A DNA stretch of 64,000 nucleotides from a virus (IMGVR_UViG_3300037237_000386:1-64000), one strand, 5' to 3'. Positions 22,377 through 49,832 are shown, numbered from the stretch's first letter. Made by a program: numbers and translations. Notes: generated from the letters alone by a model not told the origin.

Positions 22377-23591
22377 ATGGCCAGGCACAAGATGAGGACG
22401 GCGGACGCGAGCTCACCCCTGAGGGAGAGCCCGCTCGCGGCGGTGGCGGCGCGCTTCAAGGACTTCCGTCCGGCGCGCGAGGTGATGAAGGTGGTGCGCG
22501 CGGTGCCGACGCGCTTCATCCAGTTCGACCACGCGACGCGGGTGGGTGGACTGCCCGTCGACCGCATCTCGGTCGCGCACGGTCCGAGCAACGAGGGCAA
22601 GACGCTGCTCGCGCTCGGGCTCATCGACAGCTTCCTCGCGCTCGACCACTTCGGGCTGTTCGTGGACGCGGAGCGGACGACGCCGATCACGTGGGCGCGG
22701 GAGCTGATGGGCGAGCGGGCGGACTACCCGGGGTTCTTCGCCACCCGCCCCGACACGTACGAGGAGACGATCAAGCAGGTGCGGGCGTTCCTGAACCTGC
22801 TCATCGACATGAAGGCGAAGGGCAAGGTGCCCAAGGAGACGAGCGCGGTCGTCGTCGTGGACAGCCTGCGTAAGCTCGTGCCGGCGGACCTGATGGCGGA
22901 GATCCTGAAGGCGGCGAAGGAGGAGGCCGAGGAGCGGAAGAAGGGCAAGAAGGGCAAAGGCATCACGACGGGCCGGGACCGGCGCGCGCAGCTGCAGGCG
23001 AAGATGAACGCGGGGTGGATGGACGAGCTCGTGCCGCACCTGGAGCACGCGGGAGCGGCGATGCTGCTCATCGCGCGCGAGATGCAGGACCCGGACGCGG
23101 ACCCGATGGCTCGGAAGTTCGGCACGGACTACAAGGTCGGCGGCGGCGGAGCCATCATCTACGACAGCAGCCTGCGCCTGCGTGTTGAGCGCGCCGCGTG
23201 GGTCGTCGACAAGAAGGAAGAGGGCCGCAAGCCGGTCATCTTCGGGGAGCGGCACCGCGTCACCATCAAGAAGACGAAAGTGGGCGGAAAGGACGACAAG
23301 GCGAGCGTGGCCTACTTCCACTCGAGCAACGGCGTGCTGGTGCCGGCGGGGTTCGACCGCGCCAGGGACGTGCTGGAGCTCGCGGTGCGCTTCGGCGTGG
23401 TGCAGGCGGGCGGGGGGAGCTACCGCGTGGGGAGCACGCGCAGCGGCGTCCTCGGGCGCGGGGAGCACAACGTCGTGAAGCGGCTGACGGCGGAGCCGGC
23501 GACGCTGGCGAAGTTGGAGGCGGAGGTGCGCGAGCGGTTCAAGGACCAGACGCCGACGGAGTTCGACGAGATCACCGGAGAAGTCGAATGA
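22377..23591 (+). CDS. recA: RecA/UvsX-like recombinase
   Basis: GGLPVDRI, GPSNEGKT, VDAE, VVVDSL, GGGAIIYDSSLRL. Confidence 0.88.
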   Translation: MARHKMRTADASSPLRESPLAAVAARFKDFRPAREVMKVVRAVPTRFIQFDHATRVGGLPVDRISVAHGPSNEGKTLLALGLIDSFLALDHFGLFVDAERTTPITWARELMGERADYPGFFATRPDTYEETIKQVRAFLNLLIDMKAKGKVPKETSAVVVVDSLRKLVPADLMAEILKAAKEEAEERKKGKKGKGITTGRDRRAQLQAKMNAGWMDELVPHLEHAGAAMLLIAREMQDPDADPMARKFGTDYKVGGGGAIIYDSSLRLRVERAAWVVDKKEEGRKPVIFGERHRVTIKKTKVGGKDDKASVAYFHSSNGVLVPAGFDRARDVLELAVRFGVVQAGGGSYRVGSTRSGVLGRGEHNVVKRLTAEPATLAKLEAEVRERFKDQTPTEFDEITGEVE

Positions 23592-24151
23592 GCGGGAGCA
23601 TCCTCACGGACGTGGCAATCAGCAGAGCGGTGGCGAATCAGGACATTGTCATCGACCCGTACAGAGCGTCGCATGTGAACCCGGCGAGCTACGATCTGAC
23701 GTTGGGCGACCAGGTGCTCGTGTACGCGGCCGACTCATTGTCGGTGTACGACGTGAAGCAGGAGCCGACGAAGTTTCGGCACGCACTCATCGGCGATGAG
23801 GGGTTCGTCATCCACCCGGGCGTCGGCTACCTGATGCACACACATGAGAGGGTGCTCACGGAGTCGTACGTGCCGGTGCTCGACGGCAAGAGCAGCATCG
23901 GACGGCTGTTCATCAGCGTGCATTCGACGGCTGGTTATGGCGATCCGGGGTTCGATGGACAGTACACGCTGGAGGTGACGGCTCACCACTTCAGCGTGCG
24001 GCTCTACGCGGGCATGCGCATCGCGCAGATGCGGTTCCACACGATGGAGGGCAAGCTGGCCAAGACATACGAAGGGAACTACCGAGGAGCGACGGCGAAG
24101 GGTCCGGTGCCGAGCGCTGCGTGGCGACAGTTCGCGGAGAAGAAGCCGTGA
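23588..24151 (+). CDS. dcd: dCTP deaminase
   Basis: NPASYDLTL, DGKSSIGR, AGYGDPGFDGQYTLE, GMRIAQ. Confidence 0.92.
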   Translation: MSGSILTDVAISRAVANQDIVIDPYRASHVNPASYDLTLGDQVLVYAADSLSVYDVKQEPTKFRHALIGDEGFVIHPGVGYLMHTHERVLTESYVPVLDGKSSIGRLFISVHSTAGYGDPGFDGQYTLEVTAHHFSVRLYAGMRIAQMRFHTMEGKLAKTYEGNYRGATAKGPVPSAAWRQFAEKKP

Positions 24152-24909
24152 GAGCCCTGTTCACGGGGGACTGGCATAGCGACGCTTCCACCTACGGCGT
24201 GAGCCGGCACGACGACGTGGTGAAGGCGGTGAAGCAGACCGTCGAGGCGGCTGTCAGCCAGAAGGTGGATCTCTACTGTTTCGGGGGCGACCTCTGCGAC
24301 CCGGACGATGCCATCGCGTGCCTGAGGGCGTTGAAGCTCGCGATGTGGGCGGCAGGAACGCTCGCGCGGGCGGGCATCCCACAGGTGTGGCAGGCGGGCA
24401 ATCACGACGTCTTCGAGGACGGGAGCGGAGACACGACGTTGACGCCGCTCTACTCGATGGCGAGCACGCTCGCGCAATGGATGTGGGTTGTGGAGATCCC
24501 GACGACGGTGCGCGTGAGGAACTGCTCGCCCGTCTACACACTTCCCTTCACGGCGAGCAGTCATCCCTACGATCCGGCGAAGGAGCTGCGGACGATGTGC
24601 ACGGAGCAGGAGACGAACAACGGTGCGCACGGCGAGGGCTTCGTCATGAGTCACCTGGCGTTCCCGGGCATCCAGCCGGGCGAGGAGACGACGGAGATGC
24701 CGAGGGGGCGGGAGGTGGTGTTCCCGGTCGACGAGCTCGCACGCCTCCGCCCGGACAGGCGGGACGACTGGCTCGTGGCGCAGTTCCACTACCATCGGCG
24801 GCAGACGCTCCGCCTCCCCTTCGCGACGGTGCTGGTGCCCGGGAGTGCGGCCCGGCTGGCGTTCGGGGAGGAAGACAACACGCCGGGCTTCCTGCTGGTG
24901 GACCTCTGA
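24148..24909 (+). CDS. SbcD/Mre11-like metallophosphoesterase nuclease
   Basis: GDWH, GGDLCD, AGNHD, HYH, PGS. Confidence 0.85.
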   Translation: MRALFTGDWHSDASTYGVSRHDDVVKAVKQTVEAAVSQKVDLYCFGGDLCDPDDAIACLRALKLAMWAAGTLARAGIPQVWQAGNHDVFEDGSGDTTLTPLYSMASTLAQWMWVVEIPTTVRVRNCSPVYTLPFTASSHPYDPAKELRTMCTEQETNNGAHGEGFVMSHLAFPGIQPGEETTEMPRGREVVFPVDELARLRPDRRDDWLVAQFHYHRRQTLRLPFATVLVPGSAARLAFGEEDNTPGFLLVDL

Positions 24910-25385
24910 TGGCCCGCCGCAAGCTCAGGAGCCCCGCCCAGGCGTCGCCCGGCGAGGGGGGCCCGGAGGTAGCCCCCCAGGGAAGCAACGCTCAGGAGGG
25001 GCGCGTATGCGTTTCCTTCGTGCCGTTCGAGGGGAGCCGGAAGCTCCGGACGGTGGACGAGACGGCGCTGGTCTGGGCGGAGGACCCGAAGTTTTGGCGA
25101 CCGGGTCACGTGCAGGACGAGATCCTGCGCCTGCAGCCGCCGGGGGACGTGGCGGAGGGGCGCGTGGAGCACGTGCGCCGGAAGATGGTGGAGATGGGAG
25201 CGGCGGCGGTGCGGGTGCAGCCCGGGCGCAAGGCGCAGGTGCTCCCGAGGGAGAAGACGCGGCACGTGGCCCCGAGGGCGAGGGCGCGCGAGGCGGCGAT
25301 GGGGCTCGTCGAGAAGGCGACGACGAAGGACCGGGCAGCGTTGAAGACAGCCGTCGAGCGGTCGCTGGCGGAGGCGGGGTTGTGA
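24909..25385 (+). CDS. Hypothetical protein, possibly a split SbcD C-terminal domain
   Basis: Coupled; lies between the SbcD-like and SbcC-like genes. Confidence 0.45.
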   Translation: MARRKLRSPAQASPGEGGPEVAPQGSNAQEGRVCVSFVPFEGSRKLRTVDETALVWAEDPKFWRPGHVQDEILRLQPPGDVAEGRVEHVRRKMVEMGAAAVRVQPGRKAQVLPREKTRHVAPRARAREAAMGLVEKATTKDRAALKTAVERSLAEAGL

Positions 25386-25801
25386 CGACGGAGGAGGACT
25401 TCCTGACGTTGTCGCCTGAGTCGTTCGTTTCGATTGCGCGGGACATGGAGTGGCTGAGGACGAAGTCAGACGCGATGTGGAGGAAGGCGATGGAACCGGA
25501 AGTCGAGAAGTGGGACGCGATTCTCAAGAAGCTGATGGCCGTCGACACACTCGACTCTTCGCAGACGGTGCGTGTGGAGCCGCATTCGCTGGCGTTGCTC
25601 ATCGCGGAGAACACGCGCCTGAGTGCCCAGGTGGACGAGCTGCAGACGCGGGGCACGGAGATGGCGGCGGAACGCCAGCGTTGGCGCGACCCGATGCGCA
25701 TCGCGAAGATCGCGGCCAAGCTCACGACCAGTGCGGCACTCGGAGAGGACCCCGAGGACATCGCGGTCCGGGCGATGCGCGAGCTCGTCGAGGCGCCGTG
25801 A
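25382..25801 (+). CDS. Hypothetical coiled-coil protein
   Basis: Coupled ORF. Confidence 0.5.
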   Translation: MTTEEDFLTLSPESFVSIARDMEWLRTKSDAMWRKAMEPEVEKWDAILKKLMAVDTLDSSQTVRVEPHSLALLIAENTRLSAQVDELQTRGTEMAAERQRWRDPMRIAKIAAKLTTSAALGEDPEDIAVRAMRELVEAP

Positions 25802-27705
25802 GAATCGCGCGCCTGCAGCTGGAGAATTGGGAGCCGTTCAAGGGTACGCACGTCCTCGAGCTGCGGCCGCAGGCGTACGCCGTCTTTGCGAGGTACGAGG
25901 ACGACCCGGACCGCTCGAATTGGGCGGGCAAGAGCAGCCTGCTCGGAGCCGTTCGGTTTGCGCTCACCGGGGACCACGACCATCGGCTGGAGGACGAGTG
26001 GATCTCGAACGGTGAGGAGCGCGGCGCGGTGACGCTGGTGCTCGACGATGGGACGGTCATCGACCGGAGCCGGAAGCGCGGCAAGGCGACGCAGTTCGTC
26101 GTGGGCAAGGCGAAGGGCGACGACGCCCAGGCGCTGCTCTGGAAGGCGATGGGTCTCGCCAAGGAGGACTGGCTCGCCACGTGCTGGTGGGAGCAGGGGG
26201 CGACGTCGCGCCTCGTCACGGCAGATCCCGCGGAGCGCACACGCATCGTCACCGGCTGGCTGGAGCTCGGACCGCTGCAGGCGGCCGAGGGGCACAACGC
26301 GCGGCGCCTGGGCGAGGTGGTGGCGAAGGTGGAGCGGCTCGAGATCGACGCGCGTGGCTGGGAGGCCGTCGAGGCGGAGCAGCTCGGCGGGCAGTCGGTG
26401 GACGTGCTGGCGAACGCGCTGACGACGGCGGAGGGGCAGCTGGAGAAGGCGCGGGCGGAGCGGCAGGTGGCACGCGCCCGGGTGGACGAGCAGGGCGCGG
26501 CGGCGGCCAGGCGGGAGAAGGCGGCGGAGTACGCGCGGCTCGTCGAGGACGGGGTGCGGCTCAAGGCGGAGCTGGCCGAGGAGGACAAGCCGGCGCTGGT
26601 GGCGGAGAGGGACAACGCGCGCGCGACGCATGACGCGGCGGTGGGTAAGCTGACGACGACGAGCCGCGAGGCGGAGCAGCGTCGGAAGGTGGCGCTCGGG
26701 GAGTTCGACGGCAAGTGCCCGGTGGCCGGCATCGCGTGCCCCGCGAAGGACGCGATCAACGCGGACGTGAAGACGAACCGGAAGCGGAGCCAGGCGGCCG
26801 ACGCGGCGCGCGACCAGGCACGCGAAGAGGCGCTCGCGGCGACGAACACCTTGGACGCGGCGGAGGGGGAGCTGCAGGCACACGACCGCAAGGCGGAACG
26901 GCTGAAGCTACTGCGCGACCAGGCGCTCAAGCTGCAGCCGGCGGCCGAGGCGAGTGCGTCGGACCCGGAGCCCGATCCGAAGGCGGGCGAGAAGCTCGCT
27001 GCGGCGGAGCGCAAGGAACACGAGTGGGTGGAGCGCGTGGGCGCGCTGGGCGAGCGAGTCCGGCGGATCATGGACGCACGGCGCATGCGGGCCGAGGCGC
27101 TTGCGAAGATCGTGGTGCTCGACGGCGAGCTCGCGGCGCTGCGGGAGGCGGCGCTCGTCCTCGGCAAGAACGGGGCGCAGCGGGACGTCGCCCGGGGAGC
27201 GCTGGAGGACATCGAGCAGGGGGCGAACGAGCGCGTGCGTGCGGCGGGTGTGGATCTCGAGGTGAGGGTGCGCTGGGAGCACGAGAGCAAGATGCTGGCG
27301 AAGGCGTGCGGCGCGTGCGGCTGGCCGTTCCCGGAGAGCACGAAGGTCAAGGAGTGCCCGCGGTGCAAGGCGGAGCGGGGACCGCACTACGTCAACCGGC
27401 TGGAGTTCGAGAGGAGCCGTAAGAGCGGCGGTGCCGACGACATGATGGGAGTGGCCCTGCAGCTCGCCGGGAGCGCGTGGCTGCGGGACGCCCGAGGCAG
27501 CGCGTGGGCGACGGGGCTGCTCGACGAGCCGACGAGCCAGATGGACGCAGCGAACCGGCGGGCGCTCGCGCAGATGCTCCGGGCGGAGAAGGGCTTCGAG
27601 CAGCTGCTGGTGGTCAGCCACCATCACGGGACACTCGACGCGCTGCCCGGGCGAATCCTCATCACGAGTGACGGCACGTGGGCACGCGCCGAAGTGGCGG
27701 CATGA
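25798..27705 (+). CDS. SbcC/Rad50-like SMC ATPase
   Basis: LENWEPF, NWAGKSS, coiled coil with CPV hook, KSGG signature, LLDEP, VVSH. Confidence 0.88.
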   Translation: MRIARLQLENWEPFKGTHVLELRPQAYAVFARYEDDPDRSNWAGKSSLLGAVRFALTGDHDHRLEDEWISNGEERGAVTLVLDDGTVIDRSRKRGKATQFVVGKAKGDDAQALLWKAMGLAKEDWLATCWWEQGATSRLVTADPAERTRIVTGWLELGPLQAAEGHNARRLGEVVAKVERLEIDARGWEAVEAEQLGGQSVDVLANALTTAEGQLEKARAERQVARARVDEQGAAAARREKAAEYARLVEDGVRLKAELAEEDKPALVAERDNARATHDAAVGKLTTTSREAEQRRKVALGEFDGKCPVAGIACPAKDAINADVKTNRKRSQAADAARDQAREEALAATNTLDAAEGELQAHDRKAERLKLLRDQALKLQPAAEASASDPEPDPKAGEKLAAAERKEHEWVERVGALGERVRRIMDARRMRAEALAKIVVLDGELAALREAALVLGKNGAQRDVARGALEDIEQGANERVRAAGVDLEVRVRWEHESKMLAKACGACGWPFPESTKVKECPRCKAERGPHYVNRLEFERSRKSGGADDMMGVALQLAGSAWLRDARGSAWATGLLDEPTSQMDAANRRALAQMLRAEKGFEQLLVVSHHHGTLDALPGRILITSDGTWARAEVAA

Positions 27706-28055
27706 TGGGGACCATGAGCGGCAAGACGAACGGCACGACGGGACCGGCGACTCACAAGCCCGTGGAGGAAACCCGGGTTTCCCTCAAGACGGTGCGCTAC
27801 CGGGTGGAGGGCAAGCGTGTCTTCGTCATCTACGCGGCGGACGCGAGCGAGGCCCTCGACAAGATCAACGAGGCCTGCGCCTCGGGGACGAAGGTCGTGC
27901 ATGGGTTCGACGAGGTGGCCCTGGCGACGTTCGCGCCGTTCCACGTCCTCGGGTCGGAGGGAGGGATCACGGACGAGGGTGAGCTCAGCTTCGGGCTCGG
28001 GGGCGAGGCGATGCTCTGCGCGGACAATGCGCCCGCGCGCGAGACGCGAAAGTGA
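27702..28055 (+). CDS. Hypothetical protein
   Basis: Coupled ORF containing a palindrome. Confidence 0.55.
   Translation: MMGTMSGKTNGTTGPATHKPVEETRVSLKTVRYRVEGKRVFVIYAADASEALDKINEACASGTKVVHGFDEVALATFAPFHVLGSEGGITDEGELSFGLGGEAMLCADNAPARETRK
27767..27782. repeat. 16-bp palindrome, copy 5 (ETRVS)
   Basis: Exact. Confidence 0.95.
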
Positions 28056-28576
28056 ACGGCCGGCGCAAGGGCTCGCGCGCGGAGCTGGAAGTCGCGGGCA
28101 TCATCAGCGAGTGGTGGAAGCGGCTGGAGATGACGGCGCGCTTCGTCCGCATGCCGCTCTCTGGTGGGTGGGGTGAGCGCGGGGCGCGCGAGGGCTTCAA
28201 GGCGAGCGGGGACCTCGGCACGACGGCGGAGAGGTTTCCCTTCACCGTCGAGGTGAAGAGGCGCGAGGGTTGGAACCGGGAGCGCTTTTTCGCAGGCAAG
28301 GCGAGCCCCGTGTGGGCGTGGTGGAGGCAGGCGCAGTCGCAAGCCGTCGAGGCGAATGCAGAGCCGATGCTCTGGCTGCGGCACAACGGCGACAAGGAGT
28401 GGGTCGTGGTCGTGCGCGAGGAGTACGCCAACAAGATCCGCCTCAAGCCCGAGTGGCACAACAAGTGGGACGCGTGGCCCGCCAGAAGCGGGTGGAAGCC
28501 GTTCGCGTTCGGGCACCTGCTCCTCGTCGGCTTGGACCCGGCGCAGTTCGCGCTGGAAGCTGCTACGAAGGGGTGA
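28052..28576 (+). CDS. Holliday junction resolvase-like PD-(D/E)xK nuclease
   Basis: KGSRAELEV...RMPLSGG...GDL...VEVKR. Confidence 0.75.
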   Translation: MNGRRKGSRAELEVAGIISEWWKRLEMTARFVRMPLSGGWGERGAREGFKASGDLGTTAERFPFTVEVKRREGWNRERFFAGKASPVWAWWRQAQSQAVEANAEPMLWLRHNGDKEWVVVVREEYANKIRLKPEWHNKWDAWPARSGWKPFAFGHLLLVGLDPAQFALEAATKG

Positions 28577-28591
28577 GCGGAGGCGCGCAAC

Positions 28592-29287
28592 GTGAGGAAG
28601 AAGGCGAAGAGGGCCCCGGCGCAGAAGCCGGCGGGCAAGGCGGCGCCGAGTGTTGTCGGCAAGGTGGAGATGGCGGCGCTCGACCTCGTGCGCCCGAACA
28701 CCTGGAACCCGAACCGGCTGACGCCCTTCGAGAAGCGAGCGCTCAAGCACGGGCTCGAGCACGACACGTGGCTGCCGAGCCACGCGCTCACGATCTGGAG
28801 GACCGACGAGAAGGGCAAGAAGAAGATGCTCGTCATCGACGGCGAGCACCGCTGGACCGCCGCCCGGGAGCTCGGCCTGAAGGAGGGACCGATGGTGTTC
28901 CTCGACGGGCTGACCGAGGCCGAGGCGAAGGCCTGGACCGTGAAGCTCGACGCGAAGCGGGGCAAGTTCGACGAGGACAAGATGGGCCCCCTCCTCCGGA
29001 GCCTGGAGCCGACGATGGACGTGGAGACGCGAGCGCTCGACCTCGGCATCGACGAGGACCGCCTCGTGCGGTACCTCGACGACGAGCCGGACAAGGCCGT
29101 GGTCGGCGAGCTGCCGAGCGGGCAGCGGGCGAGCGTGCGGCAGGTGCAGCTCTTCTTCCCGCAGGCGCGCTACGACGAGTTCCAGAAGATGGTGCGGGAG
29201 ATGGCGGGGAGCCTGAAGACGAAGAACGTGACCGACACGGTGCTGGAGGTGGTCCGCCGTGCGGGCGCAGCTGCAGCTCCGAAGTAG
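28592..29287 (+). CDS. ParB/Srx-domain protein, paralogue 1
   Basis: PNTWNPN, VIDGEHR; HTH-like RALDLGIDEDRL; RHH-like C-terminus. Confidence 0.85.
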   Translation: MRKKAKRAPAQKPAGKAAPSVVGKVEMAALDLVRPNTWNPNRLTPFEKRALKHGLEHDTWLPSHALTIWRTDEKGKKKMLVIDGEHRWTAARELGLKEGPMVFLDGLTEAEAKAWTVKLDAKRGKFDEDKMGPLLRSLEPTMDVETRALDLGIDEDRLVRYLDDEPDKAVVGELPSGQRASVRQVQLFFPQARYDEFQKMVREMAGSLKTKNVTDTVLEVVRRAGAAAAPK

Positions 29288-30178
29288 CCACCCGGACGCC
29301 CACGTGAGGATGCTCGTGGGCAAGAGGGGTGTGGCCGAGGACGCGCCGGTGCTGCTTGCGGGCGACGCCAGCGCGTTCAAGCCGAACGGCGAGCGCCTCC
29401 TGACGCTCGTGCGCGGGGCCATCGATCGGAGGGTGATCGACGCGGCGTGGCCCTTCATGTGGGGGCTGCGAAAGCACGTCAGCACGAACCGGGGAGCCTA
29501 CGGCGGGGACGACGCGCTCGACGACGGGCGCGCGAAGGTGAAGTCGGGCGGGGTGCGGTACAGGGCCGTCAAGCAGGATGGGACCGTGAGCAAGACGAAC
29601 CACGCGAACCCGGTGCGGAGCGTGGTCGCGGGGGCGTTCGACCGCAGCCCGCGCATCCCCTTTTGCCGGCAGACGGCGTACAGCACGGACGAGCCGGAGA
29701 AGTGGGGCGCGGCGCTGCCCTTCGTGCAGGCGGTGGGGGAGCTGTTCCGCGACGTCGTACCGGACCGGGCTGCGGCGCAGCGCGAGCAGGCGGAGAAGAC
29801 GCACCCGGCGTACGTGATCCCGGGCACACCCTTCACGACCATCACCGTGAACAACACGGTCGCCGGCACGTACACACGGACAAGGGGGACTTTCACCAGG
29901 GGTTCGGTGTGATGGCGGTCATGCGCCGGGGTCACTACCGCGGGGCAGAGCTCGTGTTCCCGAAGTACGGCGTGGGTGCGGACCTGCAGCACGGCGACGT
30001 CATCTTCTTCGATCCGCACGAGGTGCACGGCAACCTGGCGTTCCGTGAGGGCATCGGCGTGGAGGCGGAAGATTGGGCTCGGATCTCGATGGTCATGTAC
30101 TTCAGGACGCGCATGGTCGATTGCCTGGAGCCGAGGGCGGAGTTGGAGCGCGCCAAGGGCGTGCGAGGAGAGGTGTGA
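29259..30178 (+). CDS. TET/JBP-family 2OG-Fe(II) dioxygenase, with a -1 frameshift at about 29873
   Basis: PFCRQTAY, GTPFTTITVN, HTDKGD (HxD), DPHEVHGN, RISMVMY. Confidence 0.85.
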
Positions 30179-30825
30179 TGGGCAAGCGGAAGAAGCCGAC
30201 GGTGAGTGCGGTGGTCAACTCGCCGCTGACGGGCGTGAAGCCGAATCCGTGGAATCCGAACCGACTGACGGCGTTCGAGAAGGAGAGCCTGAAGTTCGGC
30301 ATCCGTGAGGACGGGTGGCTCGCCAGCCACGCGCTCACCATCTGGCGCACGGACGAGAAGGGCAGAGAGAGGAACCTGGTCATCGACGGCGAGCACCGGC
30401 TGGTGGCGGCGCTGGAGCTCGGGATGACGGTCGGCCCGATGTGCTTCATCGACGGGATGAAGGAGAGCGACGCGAAGAAGCTCACCATCAAGCTCGACGC
30501 GAAGCGCGGCAAGTTCGACCAGGAGCTCCTGCAGACGCTCGTCAGGAGCATCGCGGATGGCCTCGACCTGGAGACGAGGAGCCTGGCCCTCGGCATCGGT
30601 GAGGACGTGCTCGGGGAGATGCTCGACACGACGCCGGATACACCCGTCGTCGGGGAGCTCGGCAGTGGCAGGACGAGCGACACGAAGGTGGTCACGTTGT
30701 TCTTCACGCCCGAGGGACATGACGAGTTCCTGAAGGTGGCCAAGGAGCTGGCGGTGCGCTTCAAGCAGCAGACGACGAGCGACACGGTGTTCGAGGCGGT
30801 GCGAAGGGCGAACGCCGCAAGATAG
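30178..30825 (+). CDS. ParB/Srx-domain protein, paralogue 2
   Basis: PNPWNPN, VIDGEHR; shares HALTIWRTDEKG and KLDAKRGKFD with paralogue 1. Confidence 0.85.
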   Translation: MGKRKKPTVSAVVNSPLTGVKPNPWNPNRLTAFEKESLKFGIREDGWLASHALTIWRTDEKGRERNLVIDGEHRLVAALELGMTVGPMCFIDGMKESDAKKLTIKLDAKRGKFDQELLQTLVRSIADGLDLETRSLALGIGEDVLGEMLDTTPDTPVVGELGSGRTSDTKVVTLFFTPEGHDEFLKVAKELAVRFKQQTTSDTVFEAVRRANAAR

Positions 30826-30830
30826 TCGCC

Positions 30831-31781
30831 ATGCGCGTGACGTACCGGAGGATGAGCGGGGCCGTCGGGCTGACGGACATGGAGCGCGGCAGCCGCGGGA
30901 TGTGGCTGGAGAAGAGGCGCGCGCTCCTCGCCGAGCTCGCGCGCCGGGGGCACGGGGTGAGCATCGTCAACCGGATGACGAAGTTCAGCATGCCCCCCGA
31001 GATCCCGCCGTGGGACCCGAAGCGGTGCGACCTCTTGATGATCGAGTTCGGCAGCTCGAACGCGAAGTTCTATGGCGAGGATCTCGACGGCACGAGCAGG
31101 ATGATCGACTCGCACGAGGGGAACATCGTGTTCCTCTGCGACGACCCGGACCTCCCCTACACGTGGAAGACGGTGACGAAGAAGATCGGGCGCTGGGTCG
31201 TGTGGATGAACGCGACGCGGGGCGAGGCGTTCGGCGGGCAGCCGGCGGGGATGGTCGTCCGGGATGCGCCGTTCGCGGCGCTGCTGCCCAAGCCGCTGAC
31301 GCCCATCCCGCTCGACCGCATGGAGCCTGCCGTCTACATCGGCAGGCCCAAGGGGCGCGAGAAGGCGCTGCGGGGCATCTTCGAGGCGGGTGTGGAGCTC
31401 GAGGTGTGCGGGCGCGCGAAGGAGTGGGAGGGGTTCGACGTGCGGGTCATCGACGCGCCGGACCAGGGCGCGCGCGGGGCCTTCTATCGGAGGCGGCTGG
31501 CGAGCGTCGTCGTCGCGGACCGGAAGCACAAGCGCATGGGCTGGAGGACGGGGCGCGCGTACCACGCGCTTTACGCGGGGACGCCGGCCGTCGTCGAGGC
31601 GGACCACGAGGCGCTGGCGGAGACGTTCACTGTGTTCCACGAGCCGGGGGATCTGCGAGACACGCTCACCGCGTGGAAGACGGACCCGCGGTTGCGCGCG
31701 AAGGCGTGGGACGCGCAGATGAATGCCCAGGTGCGGGACAGAGTGACCATGGACGAGACGCTGCGGGCGTCGGGCTTGTGA
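30831..31781 (+). CDS. GT-B glycosyltransferase, DNA beta-glucosyltransferase-like
   Basis: LARRGHGV, LCDDPD, YIGRPKGR, TGRAYHALYAG; lies next to TET. Confidence 0.65.
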   Translation: MRVTYRRMSGAVGLTDMERGSRGMWLEKRRALLAELARRGHGVSIVNRMTKFSMPPEIPPWDPKRCDLLMIEFGSSNAKFYGEDLDGTSRMIDSHEGNIVFLCDDPDLPYTWKTVTKKIGRWVVWMNATRGEAFGGQPAGMVVRDAPFAALLPKPLTPIPLDRMEPAVYIGRPKGREKALRGIFEAGVELEVCGRAKEWEGFDVRVIDAPDQGARGAFYRRRLASVVVADRKHKRMGWRTGRAYHALYAGTPAVVEADHEALAETFTVFHEPGDLRDTLTAWKTDPRLRAKAWDAQMNAQVRDRVTMDETLRASGL

Positions 31782-32227
31782 CGGTCGCGTACGACCTCGA
31801 CGGCGTGCTGGCGGAAGCGCCGCCCGAGGGCAGCAAGGCGTGGCGCAGGATGAAGGGACCGGAGCGCGCGGAGAGGCGCGCCTTCCTCGGGCGCTGGTAC
31901 CTGACGGCGAAGGGCCTCCACAAGCCGACGGAGCACGGGTTCCACGTCGTCACGGCGCGCTCGACGTGGGCCAGGGAGACGACGCTCGACTGGCTGGCGG
32001 CGCGCTACGGCGACCGGATGCTGGGCCTGCACATGCTCAAGGGAGGCAGGACCATCGAGCGCGTCGTCGCGTTCAAGGCGGGCGTGCTGCGGGAGCTCGG
32101 GGCGACGGACTACTCGGAGGACAACAGGACCGTCGTCGTGGCGCTGCGTAAGGCGGTACCCGAGTGCCGCATCTGGCACTACAAGGGCGGTCGCATGAAC
32201 CTCGACTACCCGGAGGCACCGCTTTGA
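31778..32227 (+). CDS. HAD-superfamily phosphatase/nucleotidase
   Basis: YDLDGVLA, VVTAR, K, YSEDN. Confidence 0.8.
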   Translation: MTVAYDLDGVLAEAPPEGSKAWRRMKGPERAERRAFLGRWYLTAKGLHKPTEHGFHVVTARSTWARETTLDWLAARYGDRMLGLHMLKGGRTIERVVAFKAGVLRELGATDYSEDNRTVVVALRKAVPECRIWHYKGGRMNLDYPEAPL

Positions 32228-32583
32228 CGCCGGTGCTGCGGTTCCTCAAGCGTCAGGTGGAGCACTACTTGGGATCGTTCTACGAGGGCCCGGAGCCTCC
32301 GCGCCGGTTGCGGAGGATGGTGCTCCTCTTCGCGAACGCGCATCCCAAGGCGACGCGGAGGGAGTGGGCAGAGTTCGCCGCGGCGCACGCTGCCGAGGCG
32401 TACCAGAGCGGGTACACGCGGGGGTGGGAGCGGAGCGAGCGAGACGCGGACGCGATGCCGTGGCTCGTGCAGGAGCCGGAGATCGTCGCGGACGCGCTTG
32501 ACCCTGGGTGGAGGGACGGGCCGAACGCGCTGCTGGTGAACGCGGAGGACGTGGTGGTGAGCGCTGCATCACGGGAGGCATGA
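32224..32583 (+). CDS. Hypothetical protein
   Basis: TTGA coupling; RBS GGAGG. Confidence 0.5.
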   Translation: MTPVLRFLKRQVEHYLGSFYEGPEPPRRLRRMVLLFANAHPKATRREWAEFAAAHAAEAYQSGYTRGWERSERDADAMPWLVQEPEIVADALDPGWRDGPNALLVNAEDVVVSAASREA

Positions 32584-33398
32584 GCGACCAGACGGCAGGA
32601 GCAACGGACGCGCCCATCTATCTCCTCGACCACGGCTACCTGCGGCTCGTGGAAACTTGGGGCAACGACGAGCGCATCGTCGAGGCGGCGCGCATGAGCA
32701 CGGGCAAGGGCTTCCTCGGGTGGGGCGTCGAGGAGACGTGCGACAAGTGCCGGGGGAGCGGTACGAATGAGCCGGAGAACGGACCGGGCTCGCTCTGCAA
32801 GCAGTGCTCGGGGAGGACGCGCTGGGTGAACAAGCCCGGCGACGAGAAGCTGCTGAAGTACCTCTACGACAACCGGCACATGACGCCGTTCGAGATGGCG
32901 GGTGCGACCTTCGAGGTGCAGGCGCCGATCTTCGTGTTCCGCGAGTGGCACCGGCATCGGACGCAGAGCTACAACGAGGCGAGCGCGCGCTACATGCCGC
33001 TGCCGGACGTGAACTACGTGCCGACGGTGGAGCGGTTGATGATCGGGGGCGGGCACCTGACGGCGCAGGCGGGCGCGGTGAAGGGAGCGGCCGAGTTCAC
33101 GAGGGAGAGCGCGGAGACGTTCCAAACGCTCCTTCGCACGCAGTACAACGAGGCGCAGGGGCTCTATCAACTGGCGCTCGACAACGGTGTACCCAAGGAG
33201 CTCGCGCGGCTCTGCCTGCCGGTGGGGCGGTACAGCCGGATGCGCGCGAGCGCGAACCTGCGCAACTGGATGCAGTTCCTGACGCTGCGGGACGACCCGC
33301 ACGCACAGTACGAGATCCGGGTGTACGCCGCGGCGGTGCGCGACGTGTTGGCGACGAGCTTCCCGAGGACGATGCGCATCTTCAAGGGAGGCACGTGA
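32580..33398 (+). CDS. thyX: Flavin-dependent thymidylate synthase with a Zn-finger insertion
   Basis: HMTPFEM, REWHRHRTQSYNEASARY, ELARLCLP, NLRNW, HAQYEIR. Confidence 0.93.
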   Translation: MSDQTAGATDAPIYLLDHGYLRLVETWGNDERIVEAARMSTGKGFLGWGVEETCDKCRGSGTNEPENGPGSLCKQCSGRTRWVNKPGDEKLLKYLYDNRHMTPFEMAGATFEVQAPIFVFREWHRHRTQSYNEASARYMPLPDVNYVPTVERLMIGGGHLTAQAGAVKGAAEFTRESAETFQTLLRTQYNEAQGLYQLALDNGVPKELARLCLPVGRYSRMRASANLRNWMQFLTLRDDPHAQYEIRVYAAAVRDVLATSFPRTMRIFKGGT

Positions 33399-33625
33399 TG
33401 CCGAATCCCGACCAGGTGCAGCTCAAGGTCAACGAGGCGCGCGGCGGCGTGAAGCGGCTGAAGGAAGCAGTCGCCACGCGGGCGCAGGTGCAGCGTGTGC
33501 AGGACGGGGACGACGAGCTCACGCTGCTCGGGCAGATTGCGTTGCACCTGGCGGAAGCCATCGAGGCGCTCGCCGGGGAGCTGCAGGGACACCGGGACAG
33601 GCACGCGGCTGGAAGGGGACGATGA
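33398..33625 (+). CDS. Hypothetical protein
   Basis: Coupled ORF. Confidence 0.5.
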   Translation: MPNPDQVQLKVNEARGGVKRLKEAVATRAQVQRVQDGDDELTLLGQIALHLAEAIEALAGELQGHRDRHAAGRGR

Positions 33626-34140: not shown

Positions 34141-34553
34141 GCCAGGACCAGGGACCGAGCCTCACGCGTAGCGCGGCGCACAACGCGGCGGCTGCGCTGG
34201 TGACGATGTACGCGGGAGCAATCGCGGACGCGGAGCGGGAGATCGCGCAACTGCGGGCGATGGTGGAGCGGACCTCGACGCTGCTCGGGCAGACGGTGAA
34301 GCAGCGGGACGAGGCGCAGGAACGGGCCTCCGACGCAGCCGCGACGACGCAGCGTTGGAAGGACGACTACGCACGCGAGGCGCAGGCGTACGCCGCCGTC
34401 TACTCGGTCGTCGAGGAGGTGAGGGAGGCGATGCCGCGGCTGCGTGAAGCGGGGTTCACGAGGCTCGTCGAGATGTGGGACGCGGCGAGCAAGCCGTATC
34501 CGAAGCCTGGGGAAACCCGGGTTTCCCCCGAACCCGAGCACGTGGCAGGCTGA
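34137..34553 (+). CDS. Hypothetical coiled-coil protein
   Basis: Coupled ORF. Confidence 0.55.
   Translation: MSQDQGPSLTRSAAHNAAAALVTMYAGAIADAEREIAQLRAMVERTSTLLGQTVKQRDEAQERASDAAATTQRWKDDYAREAQAYAAVYSVVEEVREAMPRLREAGFTRLVEMWDAASKPYPKPGETRVSPEPEHVAG
34511..34526. repeat. 16-bp palindrome, copy 6 (ETRVS)
   Basis: Exact; 19 nt before CAGGCT-N7-ATG(34559). Confidence 0.95.
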
Positions 34554-48953: not shown

Positions 48954-49832
48954 ATGAGCAAGCGGACGACCGAGTTTCTACCACCCGTCACCTACCAAGG
49001 CGGCAAGGGCCGCCTAGCAGCGCAGATCGTCGAGACGATGGGGCTCCCCATCGCCGGTCGATTCTATGACCTCTGTTGCGGCTCGGGCGCCATCTCAGTT
49101 GCCGCAGTCGAGCGGGGCCAAGACCCGAGCCGCATCACAATGGTCGACCTCTCGCCATGGGGTCTCTTCTGGAAGTCGATTGGCGACGGGTCCTTTGACG
49201 TTTCTCAATTCGAGTTGCATGCAGCGCGAGTGCCACGCGACCCCTGGAAGATAAAAGAATACGTAGAAGCCCTTTCGCGAGAGCGCGTGGGCGACGATCG
49301 CGTCTATGTGTTCCTGATCTTGCAGGCTGCACGGTTTGGCGGCGCGGCGATCTGGATTGACGGAGAGAAGTGGTGTGGCGGCGGCTTCCGTCAATACTGG
49401 ACATCGGCGTCGTCGAAAAAGGAACCGACACGCGGTCGAGAGAACCCCAATTCAACACCGCCCATGTGCCCCATGCCCGACGTCATCGTAGCGCGGTGCC
49501 GATCGCTCGCTCAGAGGATGCGAGGGGTACGAGCCATCTGCGACGACCTTGGCAGACCGGGATTCGACCTGCGTCTAGTCGTTGGGGACGGAGATGTTGC
49601 TTACATCGATCCCCCCTACGCAGGGACGTCGAAATATGGCTACGAAGTTGACGCCTCAAAACTGGCCTCGTCGCTCGGCGTGCCGTGTTGGGTTTCTGAG
49701 GGACGCGGACTTACACCTGGCGCCATCTGTCTCTCGCGTGGACGCATGAAGGGCGGCATGTCCGGCACCCGAACACGCGCTCCGAACGAAGAATGGATCA
49801 GTCCGTTCGGAACCGAAAAAGTGCGGACATGA
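48954..49832 (+). CDS. DNA adenine methyltransferase (Dam/D12-like)
   Basis: YQGGK, DLCCGSGAIS, YIDPPY; lower GC than the flanks. Confidence 0.85.
   Translation: MSKRTTEFLPPVTYQGGKGRLAAQIVETMGLPIAGRFYDLCCGSGAISVAAVERGQDPSRITMVDLSPWGLFWKSIGDGSFDVSQFELHAARVPRDPWKIKEYVEALSRERVGDDRVYVFLILQAARFGGAAIWIDGEKWCGGGFRQYWTSASSKKEPTRGRENPNSTPPMCPMPDVIVARCRSLAQRMRGVRAICDDLGRPGFDLRLVVGDGDVAYIDPPYAGTSKYGYEVDASKLASSLGVPCWVSEGRGLTPGAICLSRGRMKGGMSGTRTRAPNEEWISPFGTEKVRT

What the first reader, a model, noticed from the sequence alone, without database searches (positions are those of the whole stretch)
28592..33398. ParB-TET/JBP-ParB-glycosyltransferase-HAD-ThyX operon: candidate thymine-directed (base J-like) DNA hypermodification
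Seen: a tightly coupled run of ParB, a 2OG-Fe dioxygenase (HxD...H...R), a second ParB, a GT-B enzyme, a HAD phosphatase, an unknown ORF and ThyX, with dCTP deaminase upstream. Established: TET/JBP enzymes hydroxylate 5mC or T in DNA; characterised phage TETs work with a C5-cytosine MTase; kinetoplastid JBP plus a glucosyltransferase make base J. No C5-MTase (PC/ENV motifs) is visible in this 64 kb, only N6-type MTases. Inference: the linkage to dUMP/dTMP enzymes points to T to 5hmU to glycosyl-hmU as an anti-restriction mark.
Basis: partly seen in the sequence, partly recalled or inferred. Interest (0 to 1): 0.85.

Follow-up and report, generated by a model that had tools for sequence, protein, structure and literature searches.

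The report
Phage thymine-hypermodification operon, dioxygenase frameshifted
An uncultured peat phage carries a recently described kind of DNA-decorating gene set (ParB helper, thymine dioxygenase, sugar transferase, phosphatase) that should turn thymine into a sugar-bearing base, but its key dioxygenase gene is broken by a one-base deletion in every sample examined.

Summary

The thymine-directed reading is supported. No C5-methyltransferase is in the 76.9-kb record. The nearest dioxygenase relatives sit beside ParB plus the 5hmU kinase and amino-acid:DNA transferase of thymidine hypermodification. The kind is already published: O'Toole et al., PNAS 2026, showed ParB-dependent phage T-dioxygenases.

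The dioxygenase is split by a 1-nt deletion at the His codon of HxD. Contigs from four separate peat metagenome runs carry the same deletion, so it is not a single-assembly error. I found no recoding signal, so the pathway is probably dead in this population.

Less ordinary points: ParB genes flank the dioxygenase, ParB duplication recurs, and a GT-HAD cassette is adjacent in 75 of 80 viral loci. The ThyX and dCTP-deaminase linkage is weak evidence.

Other first readers noted this same stretch of this genome; the scan showed nothing on other DNA. Verdict: new member of a known kind.

The parts
28592..29287 (+). ParB-like protein 1 (231 aa): ParB/Srx N-terminal nucleotide-binding domain with a DGEHR box, a linker and a small C-terminal domain. 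Predicted activator of the dioxygenase.
   Evidence: PHROG ParB families down to 3e-15. Pfam ParB_N 0.0033, below cut-off. Atlas 0.97 to ParB_N clusters. Weak matches to SerK and ParB in PDB sequences. The activator role is inferred from O'Toole 2026.
29259..29873 (+). 5mYOX (TET/JBP) dioxygenase, N-terminal 205 codons in frame 0. As written, this frame runs on to a stop at 29910-29912 and gives a 217-aa product without HxD.
   Evidence: Pfam PF12851 positions 10-85. phrog_24024 3e-26. Alignment to intact homologs L001:5995-6870 and L004:5977-6882.
29871..29875 (+). Frameshift site. Homologs read ...TVPAAY-H-R-D-x-G-D. The window reads TAC|ACA CGG, so one C of the expected TAC-CAC is missing. 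The His codon of HxD appears only if base 29873 is read twice.
   Evidence: Contigs from runs X1-X4 bridge the site with 0 gaps. There is no slippery heptamer, and the downstream RNA fold has z 0.01.
29873..30178 (+). 5mYOX dioxygenase, C-terminal 101 codons in the -1 frame: HTD (HxD), distal His in HEVHGN, Arg in ARISMVMYFR, then Cys plus a 17-aa tail.
   Evidence: Pfam PF12851 positions 87-163, 3e-11 and 7.7e-13. GC3 switches frame at about 29870.
30178..30825 (+). ParB-like protein 2 (215 aa), a full-length paralog of ParB-like 1.
   Evidence: 54% identity over 213 aa with no gaps. PHROG ParB 1.2e-14. No other locus examined has a ParB downstream of the dioxygenase.
30831..31781 (+). GT-B glycosyltransferase resembling T4 beta-glucosyltransferase (316 aa), with an invariant DDPD motif. 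Predicted to glycosylate 5hmU in DNA.
31778..32227 (+). Small HAD-superfamily phosphatase (149 aa) with a single-helix insert in place of a cap. Obligate partner of the GT; substrate unknown.
32224..32583 (+). Unknown 119-aa ORF. A 45%-identical homolog lies in L001, also upstream of ThyX.
   Evidence: no family or fold match.
32580..33398 (+). ThyX flavin-dependent thymidylate synthase (272 aa) with a CxxC...CxxC zinc-ribbon-like insert.
   Evidence: Pfam Thy1 2e-42 and weak Anti-TRAP/DnaJ_CXXCXGXG hits on the insert. phrog_85 3e-52.

Best explanation
This is a phage post-replicative thymine-hypermodification operon of the ParB-associated 5mYOX (TET/JBP) type.

Intended mechanism:
1. The Fe(II)/2-oxoglutarate dioxygenase, helped on double-stranded DNA by its ParB-like partner(s), hydroxylates thymine in phage DNA to 5-hydroxymethyluracil.
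2. The T4-BGT-like GT-B enzyme then transfers a sugar from a nucleotide-sugar to the new hydroxyl, giving a base-J-like glycosyl-5hmU.
3. The small HAD phosphatase, which nearly always travels with this GT, removes a phosphate either from a sugar-phosphate precursor or from the DNA-linked adduct.
4. ThyX and the distant dCTP deaminase only feed the dTTP pool.

In this phage population the dioxygenase gene carries a 1-nt deletion exactly at the His codon of its HxD iron-binding motif. As encoded, the first step is most probably lost and the rest of the cassette is idle: a recent pseudogenisation.

Shown here: gene identities, folds, synteny, absence of a C5-MTase, and the frameshift in four assemblies. 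Inferred: substrate (T), product (glycosyl-5hmU), the HAD role, and loss of function.
For: - Gene identities.
- Thymine as substrate. No PF00145 in the record or in 5 relatives' records, and hits in only 2 of 24 further TET-bearing records. No ThyA-type hydroxymethylase, so there is no pre-replicative 5hmU route.
- The window enzyme is sister to L001 (99% local support) inside a 5-member, all ParB-linked clade. In L001, L004 and L052 the downstream genes are Ploopntkinase3 plus ADDT/aGPT-Pplase; L002 has TAGT-like, APH and a PNKP-like HAD instead.
- PMC13229309 shows in vivo and in vitro that ParB-linked phage 5mYOXs make 5hmU, and that only 6% of 5mYOX contigs carry a C5-MT.
- Cassette nature: GT-HAD adjacent in 75 of 80 loci; 21 loci with an upstream ParB, TET and GT, 20 of them with HAD, in phages from 28% to 68% GC.
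- Broken dioxygenase. The same deletion is bridged with 0 gaps by contigs from four peat runs of different samples and studies, 2020-2025.
- The record holds only one Tet_JBP locus.
- There is no slippery site and no downstream RNA structure.
Against: - No modified base has been measured.
- Substrate choice cannot be read from the sequence. The record is 83% complete, so a C5-MTase could lie in the missing part.
- No experiment I found shows a phage GT acting on 5hmU. T4 BGT glucosylates 5hmU in duplex DNA only when it is mispaired with G (PMC4111573 abstract).
- Every gene of the operon other than the dioxygenase is an uninterrupted ORF, and GC3 stays high in both halves of the dioxygenase. 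That fits a very recent loss, but it also fits an unrecognised way of reading through.
- Logan contigs hide minority alleles, so an intact allele could coexist.
- The four runs come from similar peat habitats and differ at only 3 positions in 5 kb. They sample one near-clonal population, not independent lineages.
Confidence: 0.6

Rival explanations
1. The frameshift is bypassed, by a -1 ribosomal shift at TAC-A or by transcript slippage. A full-length active dioxygenase is then made at a low, regulated level, and the pathway is live in this phage.
For: Re-reading the single base 29873 restores ...TVAGTY-HTDKGD... with no residue lost. The allele persists in four runs from 2020 to 2025. All six neighbouring genes are uninterrupted ORFs and both halves of the dioxygenase keep high GC3.
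Against: There is no X XXY YYZ heptamer at the site. A slip at the downstream G5 run would lose both H and D of HxD (sequence). The 100 nt downstream fold no better than shuffles, z 0.01. There is no homopolymer for transcriptional slippage. In 117 of 118 distinct homologs used for the tree the dioxygenase lies in one open frame, so the shift is not a family trait. The population is near-clonal, so persistence needs no selection.
Confidence: 0.12
2. The enzyme works on 5-methylcytosine, like the clade A/B phage TETs. The 5mC would come from a host methyltransferase or from a phage one in the unsequenced 17% of the genome, and the GT would make glycosyl-5hmC.
For: Characterised phage TETs of Burke et al. 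2021 (PMC8256090) act on 5mC. 5mYOX97 and 176 also oxidise 5mC in vitro (PMC13229309 abstract). T4 BGT, the GT's nearest structure, acts on 5hmC. Two of 24 related records do hold a C5-MTase.
Against: There is no C5-MTase in 76.9 kb. None was found in 7 of 9 relatives' records rated 100% complete. The nearest relatives are wired to 5hmU-specific kinase and AADT enzymes. ParB-linked clade C1 enzymes gave 5hmU in E. coli without any C5-MT (PMC13229309).
Confidence: 0.1
3. The one-base deletion is a sequencing or assembly artefact, and the phage has an intact gene.
For: Metagenome assemblies can carry indels. All evidence here comes from contigs, not raw reads.
Against: Four separately assembled runs from different samples and studies all bridge the site with 0 gaps and 0-1 mismatches: records 1, 8, 17 and 26. 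The site is a CC dinucleotide, not a long homopolymer.
Confidence: 0.06
4. One or both ParB-like proteins are enzymes rather than activators. They would be ParB/Srx-fold kinases, like archaeal SerK, that phosphorylate 5hmU, with the HAD phosphatase reversing or proofreading that step.
For: The best sequence matches in NCBIfam and PDB are to the ADP-dependent serine kinase SerK around the DGEHR box, at 2e-6 and 8e-4. There are two diverged paralogs. The HAD's nearest folds are polynucleotide phosphatases. This genome has no P-loop 5hmU kinase.
Against: The matches cover only about 40 residues of the shared ParB/Srx core. In PMC13229309, ParB plus 5mYOX gave plain 5hmU, ParB alone did nothing, and mutating nucleotide-binding residues did not abolish activation.
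Confidence: 0.07

Closest known systems
ParB-dependent phage T-dioxygenases (5mYOX clade C1, e.g. 5mYOX176/ParB176; O'Toole et al., PNAS 2026, PMC13229309)
   Same: A TET/JBP dioxygenase of about 300 aa directly preceded by a short ParB-like gene (NBD, linker, CTD). No adjacent C5-MTase. Nearest relatives sit next to a P-loop kinase and an amino-acid:DNA transferase. GT and HAD are among the co-occurring domains the paper lists.
   Different: Here a second ParB paralog follows the dioxygenase; the paper does not mention this and I saw it in no other locus. The tailoring genes are a BGT-like GT plus HAD rather than kinase plus AADT. The dioxygenase is frameshifted. No direct sequence comparison with 5mYOX176 was possible, because the paper's sequences are not held.
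Kinetoplastid base J pathway (JBP1/JBP2 thymidine hydroxylases plus the glucosyltransferase JGT)
   Same: The same predicted chemistry: T to 5hmU by a TET/JBP-family dioxygenase on DNA, then O-glycosylation of the hydroxymethyl group.
   Different: There is no J-binding or SNF2 domain on the dioxygenase, and a ParB helper is present instead. The GT here is a GT-B, T4-BGT-like fold, whereas the 2023 preprint (10.1101/2023.12.21.572611) compares JGT with the phage GT-A enzymes. A HAD partner is present. This is a functional analogue, not a member.
T4 beta-glucosyltransferase (BGT) and the 5mYOX-associated GT-B DNA glycosyltransferases of metaviromes (preprint 10.1101/2023.12.21.572611)
   Different: Only 12-15% sequence identity, and no HMM family recognises it. 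The acceptor is expected to be 5hmU made after replication, not 5hmC incorporated at replication. The sugar donor is unknown.
Thymidine hypermodification via 5-HMUDK kinase and aGPT-Pplase/AADT (phages PhiW-14, SP10, ViI, M6; described in PMC8256090 and PMC13229309)
   Same: 5hmU in DNA is the handle for further decoration. The window's closest dioxygenase relatives (L001, L004, L052) carry exactly these genes.
   Different: The window genome has neither the kinase nor the AADT. It also has no ThyA-type hydroxymethylase, so 5hmU must be made after replication.
T4 polynucleotide kinase 3'-phosphatase domain and other small-cap HAD phosphatases
   Different: It stands alone with no kinase domain. 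The margin over other HADs is small (AphA 10.9, generic HADs about 9). The substrate is unknown.

Membership tests
ParB-dependent phage T-dioxygenase system (5mYOX clade C1 + ParB) | TET/JBP double-stranded beta-helix domain with HxD...H...R | tested here: met
   PF12851 positions 10-85 and 87-163 are matched. HTD, HEVHGN and R are present in the -1 frame. Homology holds only when the gene is read across the frameshift.
ParB-dependent phage T-dioxygenase system (5mYOX clade C1 + ParB) | Dioxygenase encoded as one intact ORF of about 280-300 aa | tested here: not met
   A 1-nt deletion at 29871-29875 splits it. The deletion is present in four assemblies. Homologs are single ORFs.
ParB-dependent phage T-dioxygenase system (5mYOX clade C1 + ParB) | Adjacent cognate ParB-like gene with an N-terminal ParB/Srx nucleotide-binding domain | tested here: met
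   PHROG ParB 3e-15 and 1.2e-14. Atlas 0.97 to ParB_N. Both genes abut the dioxygenase.
ParB-dependent phage T-dioxygenase system (5mYOX clade C1 + ParB) | ParB lacks the HTH DNA-binding domain but keeps a C-terminal dimerisation domain | tested here: inconclusive
   The proteins are short (215-231 aa) and no HTH family is matched.
ParB-dependent phage T-dioxygenase system (5mYOX clade C1 + ParB) | No neighbouring C5-cytosine methyltransferase | tested here: met
   PF00145 is absent from the 76.9-kb record; the control rang in 9 of 14 genomes.
ParB-dependent phage T-dioxygenase system (5mYOX clade C1 + ParB) | Phylogenetic grouping with ParB-linked enzymes that sit beside T-hypermodification genes | tested here: met
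   FastTree places it as sister to L001 (99) in an all-ParB clade. ADDT and Ploopntkinase3 lie in L001, L004 and L052. No characterised reference sequence was in the tree.
ParB-dependent phage T-dioxygenase system (5mYOX clade C1 + ParB) | C-terminal extension after the last conserved Cys, said to be exclusive to ParB-dependent enzymes | tested here: inconclusive
   The window has Cys plus 17 aa. In my sample, tails of ParB-linked enzymes (median 21.5) were not longer than those of ParB-less enzymes (median 67). The column may not be the paper's C280.
ParB-dependent phage T-dioxygenase system (5mYOX clade C1 + ParB) | ParB-stimulated oxidation of T to 5hmU on dsDNA | not testable with these tools
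   This needs expression and nucleoside LC-MS.
T4 BGT-like GT-B DNA glycosyltransferase | Two-Rossmann GT-B fold superposable on T4 BGT over the full length | tested here: met
T4 BGT-like GT-B DNA glycosyltransferase | Catalytic Asp equivalent to BGT D100 | tested here: inconclusive
   D104, D105 and D107 (DDPD) are invariant in 56 homologs. The tools gave no residue-level superposition.
T4 BGT-like GT-B DNA glycosyltransferase | Glycosylates a 5-hydroxymethylpyrimidine in DNA | not testable with these tools
   Inferred from the dioxygenase directly upstream in 76 of 80 loci.
HAD-superfamily phosphatase | Motifs I-IV (DxD, S/T, K, E/D-D) | tested here: met
   D6, D8, S59-A60-R61, K100 and E114-D115-N116 are invariant or nearly invariant in 32 sequences.
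HAD-superfamily phosphatase | Rossmannoid HAD fold | tested here: met
Kinetoplastid base J system (JBP + JGT) | JBP-type hydroxylase with a J-DNA-binding or SNF2 domain, plus a JGT-type glucosyltransferase | tested here: not met
   The dioxygenase is about 306 aa and is matched only by the TET/JBP catalytic domain among Pfam families. The GT is GT-B and BGT-like. It works like base J synthesis but is not a member.
ThyX (flavin-dependent thymidylate synthase) | Thy1 domain | tested here: met
   PF02511 2e-42 over profile positions 1-190.

The most novel reading that the evidence does not exclude
The GT-HAD pair, found in at least 100 viral contigs and recombined with three separate dioxygenase clades, makes a glycosylated 5hmU in phage DNA: a bacterial-virus counterpart of base J. 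It would do so by a two-step route in which a sugar-phosphate or phosphorylated adduct is placed on DNA and the Pnkp-like HAD then dephosphorylates it on the polymer. In lineages with duplicated ParBs, the two paralogs would form a heterodimeric activator.
Probability: 0.15. Interest if true: 0.65.

Novelty: new member of a known kind. Interest (0 to 1): 0.36.

Why it matters
ParB-activated thymine dioxygenases of phages were described only in 2025-2026, and what happens to the 5hmU afterwards is largely untested.

This locus and the census around it add four things:
- A recurrent ParB-dioxygenase-GT-HAD cassette is a concrete candidate for a phage "base J".
- An uncharacterised BGT-like GT family, invisible to HMM libraries, always travels with a small Pnkp-like HAD phosphatase.
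- ParB duplication arose independently at least twice.
- A natural frameshift knock-out of the dioxygenase persists in peat samples over several years. That bears on whether the modification is dispensable in nature.

None of this overturns current understanding. It extends a known system and points to good test constructs.

Tried and rejected
- Megablast of the 5.5-kb block against GenBank phages found nothing. tblastn found only distant TET hits mis-annotated as 'SNF2 DNA repair protein'.
- Pfam, PHROGs and NCBIfam gave nothing for the GT, the HAD or orf119. Sequence search of the PDB gave nothing for the GT or HAD.
- ESM Atlas gave nothing usable for orf119.
The long contigs holding the closest GT homologs (P0005 and P0006, 55-59% identical) could therefore not be inspected for an intact dioxygenase.
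- A metagenome scan seeded with P0005 returned one 1.3-kb contig.
- Exact-pattern scans allowing either allele at the frameshift found nothing in metagenome or viral contigs. Near-identical records are withheld, so this says nothing.
- The genome-contig scan gave two MAG contigs (Rhodoluna, a betaproteobacterium). They are not informative about this phage's host.
- Programmed frameshifting: no slippery heptamer, and the downstream RNA has z 0.01. Kept only as a low-probability rival.
- The C-terminal-extension criterion of O'Toole et al. did not separate ParB-linked from ParB-less enzymes in my alignment. Left as inconclusive.
- The paper's supplements and sequence identifiers are not held. 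No direct comparison with 5mYOX176/ParB176 was possible.
- The three SNPs seen between runs are each from one low-depth contig: ParB1 synonymous, dioxygenase G53C next to the distal His, ThyX G156W. They are too few to test for relaxed selection.
- dUTPase, N6_N4 MTase, ThyA, ADDT and Ploopntkinase3 searches of the record were all negative. The ADDT control rang in none of the 14 control genomes, so that negative is weak.

Full report
WHAT THE WINDOW IS. The window is the first 64 kb of a 76.9-kb linear IMG/VR virus record rated 83% complete. It is 68% G+C, with nearly all genes on the + strand. The same DNA occurs in peat and permafrost metagenomes from many studies. Because of the high G+C, I called genes by third-position GC.

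OBSERVATION: GENE ORDER. The order is:
- PDDEXK_15 nuclease, 28052-28576
- ParB-like 1, 28592-29287
- TET/JBP dioxygenase, 29259-30178, in two frames
- ParB-like 2, 30178-30825
- glycosyltransferase (GT), 30831-31781
- HAD, 31778-32227
- orf119, 32224-32583
- ThyX, 32580-33398
- a 76-aa ORF, 33395-33625

The junctions are a 29-nt overlap, a 1-nt overlap, a 5-nt gap and then 4-nt overlaps. No terminator-like or sigma-70-like site lies on the + strand between 27.5 and 34.6 kb.

OBSERVATION: GENE IDENTITIES.
- Both ParB-like proteins hit PHROG ParB families (3e-15 and 1.2e-14). ParB1 scores 0.97 against ParB_N clusters in the ESM Atlas. The two are full-length paralogs, 54% identical over 213 residues without a gap.
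- ThyX matches Pfam Thy1 at 2e-42.
It is 4.5 kb upstream, behind an Mre11/SbcD-like phosphoesterase, an SbcC/Rad50-like ATPase, a 125-aa ORF and the PDDEXK nuclease.

THE GT AND THE HAD. Neither matches any model in Pfam, PHROGs or NCBIfam or any PDB sequence.
- The GT has 60 homologs of about 310 aa, all unnamed. With them AlphaFold gives pLDDT 96 and pTM 0.92.
- Foldseek's six best hits are T4 beta-glucosyltransferase, at E 2.4e-11 to 1.0e-9.
- The HAD call is also right. In 32 homologs the four HAD motifs are invariant or nearly so: D6/D8, S59-A60-R61, K100 and E114-D115-N116.

THE DIOXYGENASE IS BROKEN.
- Pfam Tet_JBP positions 10-85 lie in the frame that starts at 29259. Positions 87-163 lie in the -1 frame.
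- Intact homologs (L001, 291 aa; L004, 301 aa) read ...GTPFTTITVNNTVPAAYHRDxGDF... The window reads ...GTPFTTITVNNTVAGTY and then runs out of frame, while HTDKGDFHQGFGV... continues in the -1 frame.
- At the DNA level, ACG TAC ACA CGG should be ACG TAC CAC ACG G. One C is missing, exactly at the His of the HxD iron ligands.
- As written, the gene gives a 217-aa product without HxD, the distal His or the 2OG-binding Arg.
- The record has no second Tet_JBP locus.
- I laid Logan contigs from four peat runs on 28500-33500: X1, which may be the source, and X2-X4 from other samples and studies, 2020-2025. In each run a contig bridges the site with no gaps. Only three substitutions were seen over the 5 kb.
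- So the deletion is a real, majority allele of a near-clonal population, not a one-off assembly error.
- There is no slippery heptamer. A slip at the downstream G5 run would not restore HxD. The next 100 nt fold no better than shuffled sequence (z 0.01).
- Both halves keep high GC3, so the loss is recent.

WHAT THE MODULE IS: THE FAMILY CONTEXT. I fetched two sets of viral loci, 80 seeded with the dioxygenase and 80 seeded with the GT family.
- In the GT set, the HAD follows the GT in 75 of 80 loci. By HMM, a dioxygenase lies upstream in 76 of 80.
- 21 loci have an upstream ParB, the dioxygenase and the GT, 20 of them with the HAD as well. Their genomes range from 28% to 68% G+C.
- In 117 of the 118 distinct homologs used for the tree, the dioxygenase lies in one open frame.
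- On a FastTree of these 118 distinct dioxygenases, the window's enzyme is sister to L001 with 99% local support. Both sit in a five-member clade with L002, L003 and L052, all ParB-linked.
- Downstream of the dioxygenase, L001 has ADDT and Ploopntkinase3. L004 has a P-loop kinase, an amidinotransferase-like gene and ADDT/aGPT-Pplase3. L052 has a P-loop kinase, ADDT (1e-34) and dUTPase. L002 has a weak TAGT-like GT, an APH kinase and a PNKP-like HAD.
- The P-loop kinase and the amino-acid:DNA transferase act on 5hmU in thymidine hypermodification, as described in PMC8256090 and PMC13229309. This is strong contextual evidence that this clade makes 5hmU.
- The GT-HAD cassette occurs with three separate dioxygenase clades. 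It behaves as a mobile tailoring module.

WHAT THE MODULE IS: METHYLTRANSFERASES AND OTHER ROUTES.
- C5-methyltransferases are rare near these enzymes. I found none in this record and none in five relatives' records. Two of 24 further TET-bearing records had one. Seven of the nine records rated 100% complete had none.
- This genome has no ThyA-type hydroxymethylase, no ADDT and no Ploopntkinase3.

COMPARISON WITH WHAT IS KNOWN.
- O'Toole et al. (PNAS 2026, PMC13229309; preprint 10.1101/2025.08.14.668559) define phage thymine dioxygenases (5mYOX) in two subclasses.
- Clade C1 enzymes co-localise with a ParB homolog that has the nucleotide-binding and C-terminal domains but no obvious DNA-binding domain. 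In E. coli they need that ParB to convert up to 25-35% of T to 5hmU. In vitro the ParB is needed only on dsDNA.
- They report GTs in 31%, ParBs in 27% and C5-MTs in 6% of 5mYOX contigs, and they list HAD among the neighbouring domains.
- Burke et al. 2021 showed that TET89 oxidises T.
- The 2023 preprint on phage DNA glycosyltransferases describes BGT-like GT-B enzymes next to 5mYOX. It infers that many such pathways make 5hmU.
- Aravind's group predicted the ParB association in 2013, as cited.
This locus is a new member.
- Three things I did not find in those papers: a ParB paralog on each side of the dioxygenase; ParB duplication as a recurrent event; and any demonstration of a glycosylated 5hmU in phage DNA or of the HAD's role.
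- On duplication: L111 and L114 have two tandem ParBs 43% identical to each other, closer to each other than to any other ParB compared. That is an event independent of the window's.

MECHANISM AND CONFIDENCE.
- Most likely (0.6 overall): a ParB-assisted T-dioxygenase, then glycosylation of 5hmU by the BGT-like GT, then a phosphatase step by the HAD.
- In this population the pathway is blocked at step one by the frameshift.
- My confidence in the separate parts:
  - module identity: about 0.9
  - thymine as substrate: about 0.75
  - glycosyl-5hmU as product: about 0.55
  - loss of function here: about 0.7
- The HAD's nearest folds act on nucleic-acid ends. GT-B plus HAD pairs elsewhere (trehalose-6-phosphate and sucrose-phosphate synthesis; my own knowledge) act through a phosphorylated intermediate. 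This suggests, and no more than that, dephosphorylation of a sugar-phosphate precursor or of a DNA-linked adduct.
- ThyX, orf119 and dCTP deaminase are best read as dTTP-supply genes. ThyX lies near the module only here and in L001, and in none of the 80 GT loci.

VERDICT. This is a new member of a known kind, of moderate interest.

Noticed in passing
window 27767-27782 and 34511-34526 (14 copies window-wide): The perfect 16-bp palindrome GGAAACCCGGGTTTCC occurs 13 times exactly and once with 1 mismatch in 64 kb, against 0 expected. Two copies bracket the 6.7-kb block that holds the modification operon, and none lies inside it. It is probably a phage regulator or operator site. Whether the ParB-like proteins use it is untested, and the published 5mYOX-associated ParBs lack a DNA-binding domain.
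   Followed up: partly
window 32580-33398 (insert at about 32727-32861): ThyX carries a CxxCxGxG...CxxC zinc-ribbon-like insert (weak Anti-TRAP and DnaJ_CXXCXGXG hits). The ThyX of the relative L001 (10735-12336) is instead interrupted by an intein with an HNH endonuclease.
   Followed up: no
window 22377-28576: A recombination and repair block lies upstream of the operon: RecA-like (22377-23591), dCTP deaminase (23600-24046), Mre11/SbcD-like phosphoesterase (24121-24909), SbcC/Rad50-like ATPase (25450-27705), a 125-aa ORF, and a PDDEXK_15 nuclease that PHROGs names 'RusA-like'.
   Followed up: partly
L111:635-1749 and L114:117-1231: Two tandem ParB-like genes, 43% identical to each other, sit upstream of a dioxygenase-GT-HAD cassette in an unrelated 43%-GC phage. 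This is a ParB duplication independent of the window's.
   Followed up: partly
L002:6891-9543: In a close relative of the window's dioxygenase, the tailoring genes are a weak TAGT-like GT, an APH-family kinase and a 389-aa protein ending in a PNKP/'Swiss Army Knife' HAD domain. This is a second, different pairing of a GT with a polynucleotide-phosphatase-like HAD.
   Followed up: no
window 48993-49646: The only methyltransferase-like signal found in the record is a weak Dam-like (D12 class) match split over two stretches of one 304-aa frame (E about 2e-3, below cut-off).
   Followed up: no
GenBank phages: HTVC112P, S-CBWM1, Cr30, DLP_6: Distant homologs of this dioxygenase in cultured phages are annotated 'SNF2 DNA repair protein' or 'DnaJ chaperone'. 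These look like annotation errors for TET/JBP-family genes.
   Followed up: no
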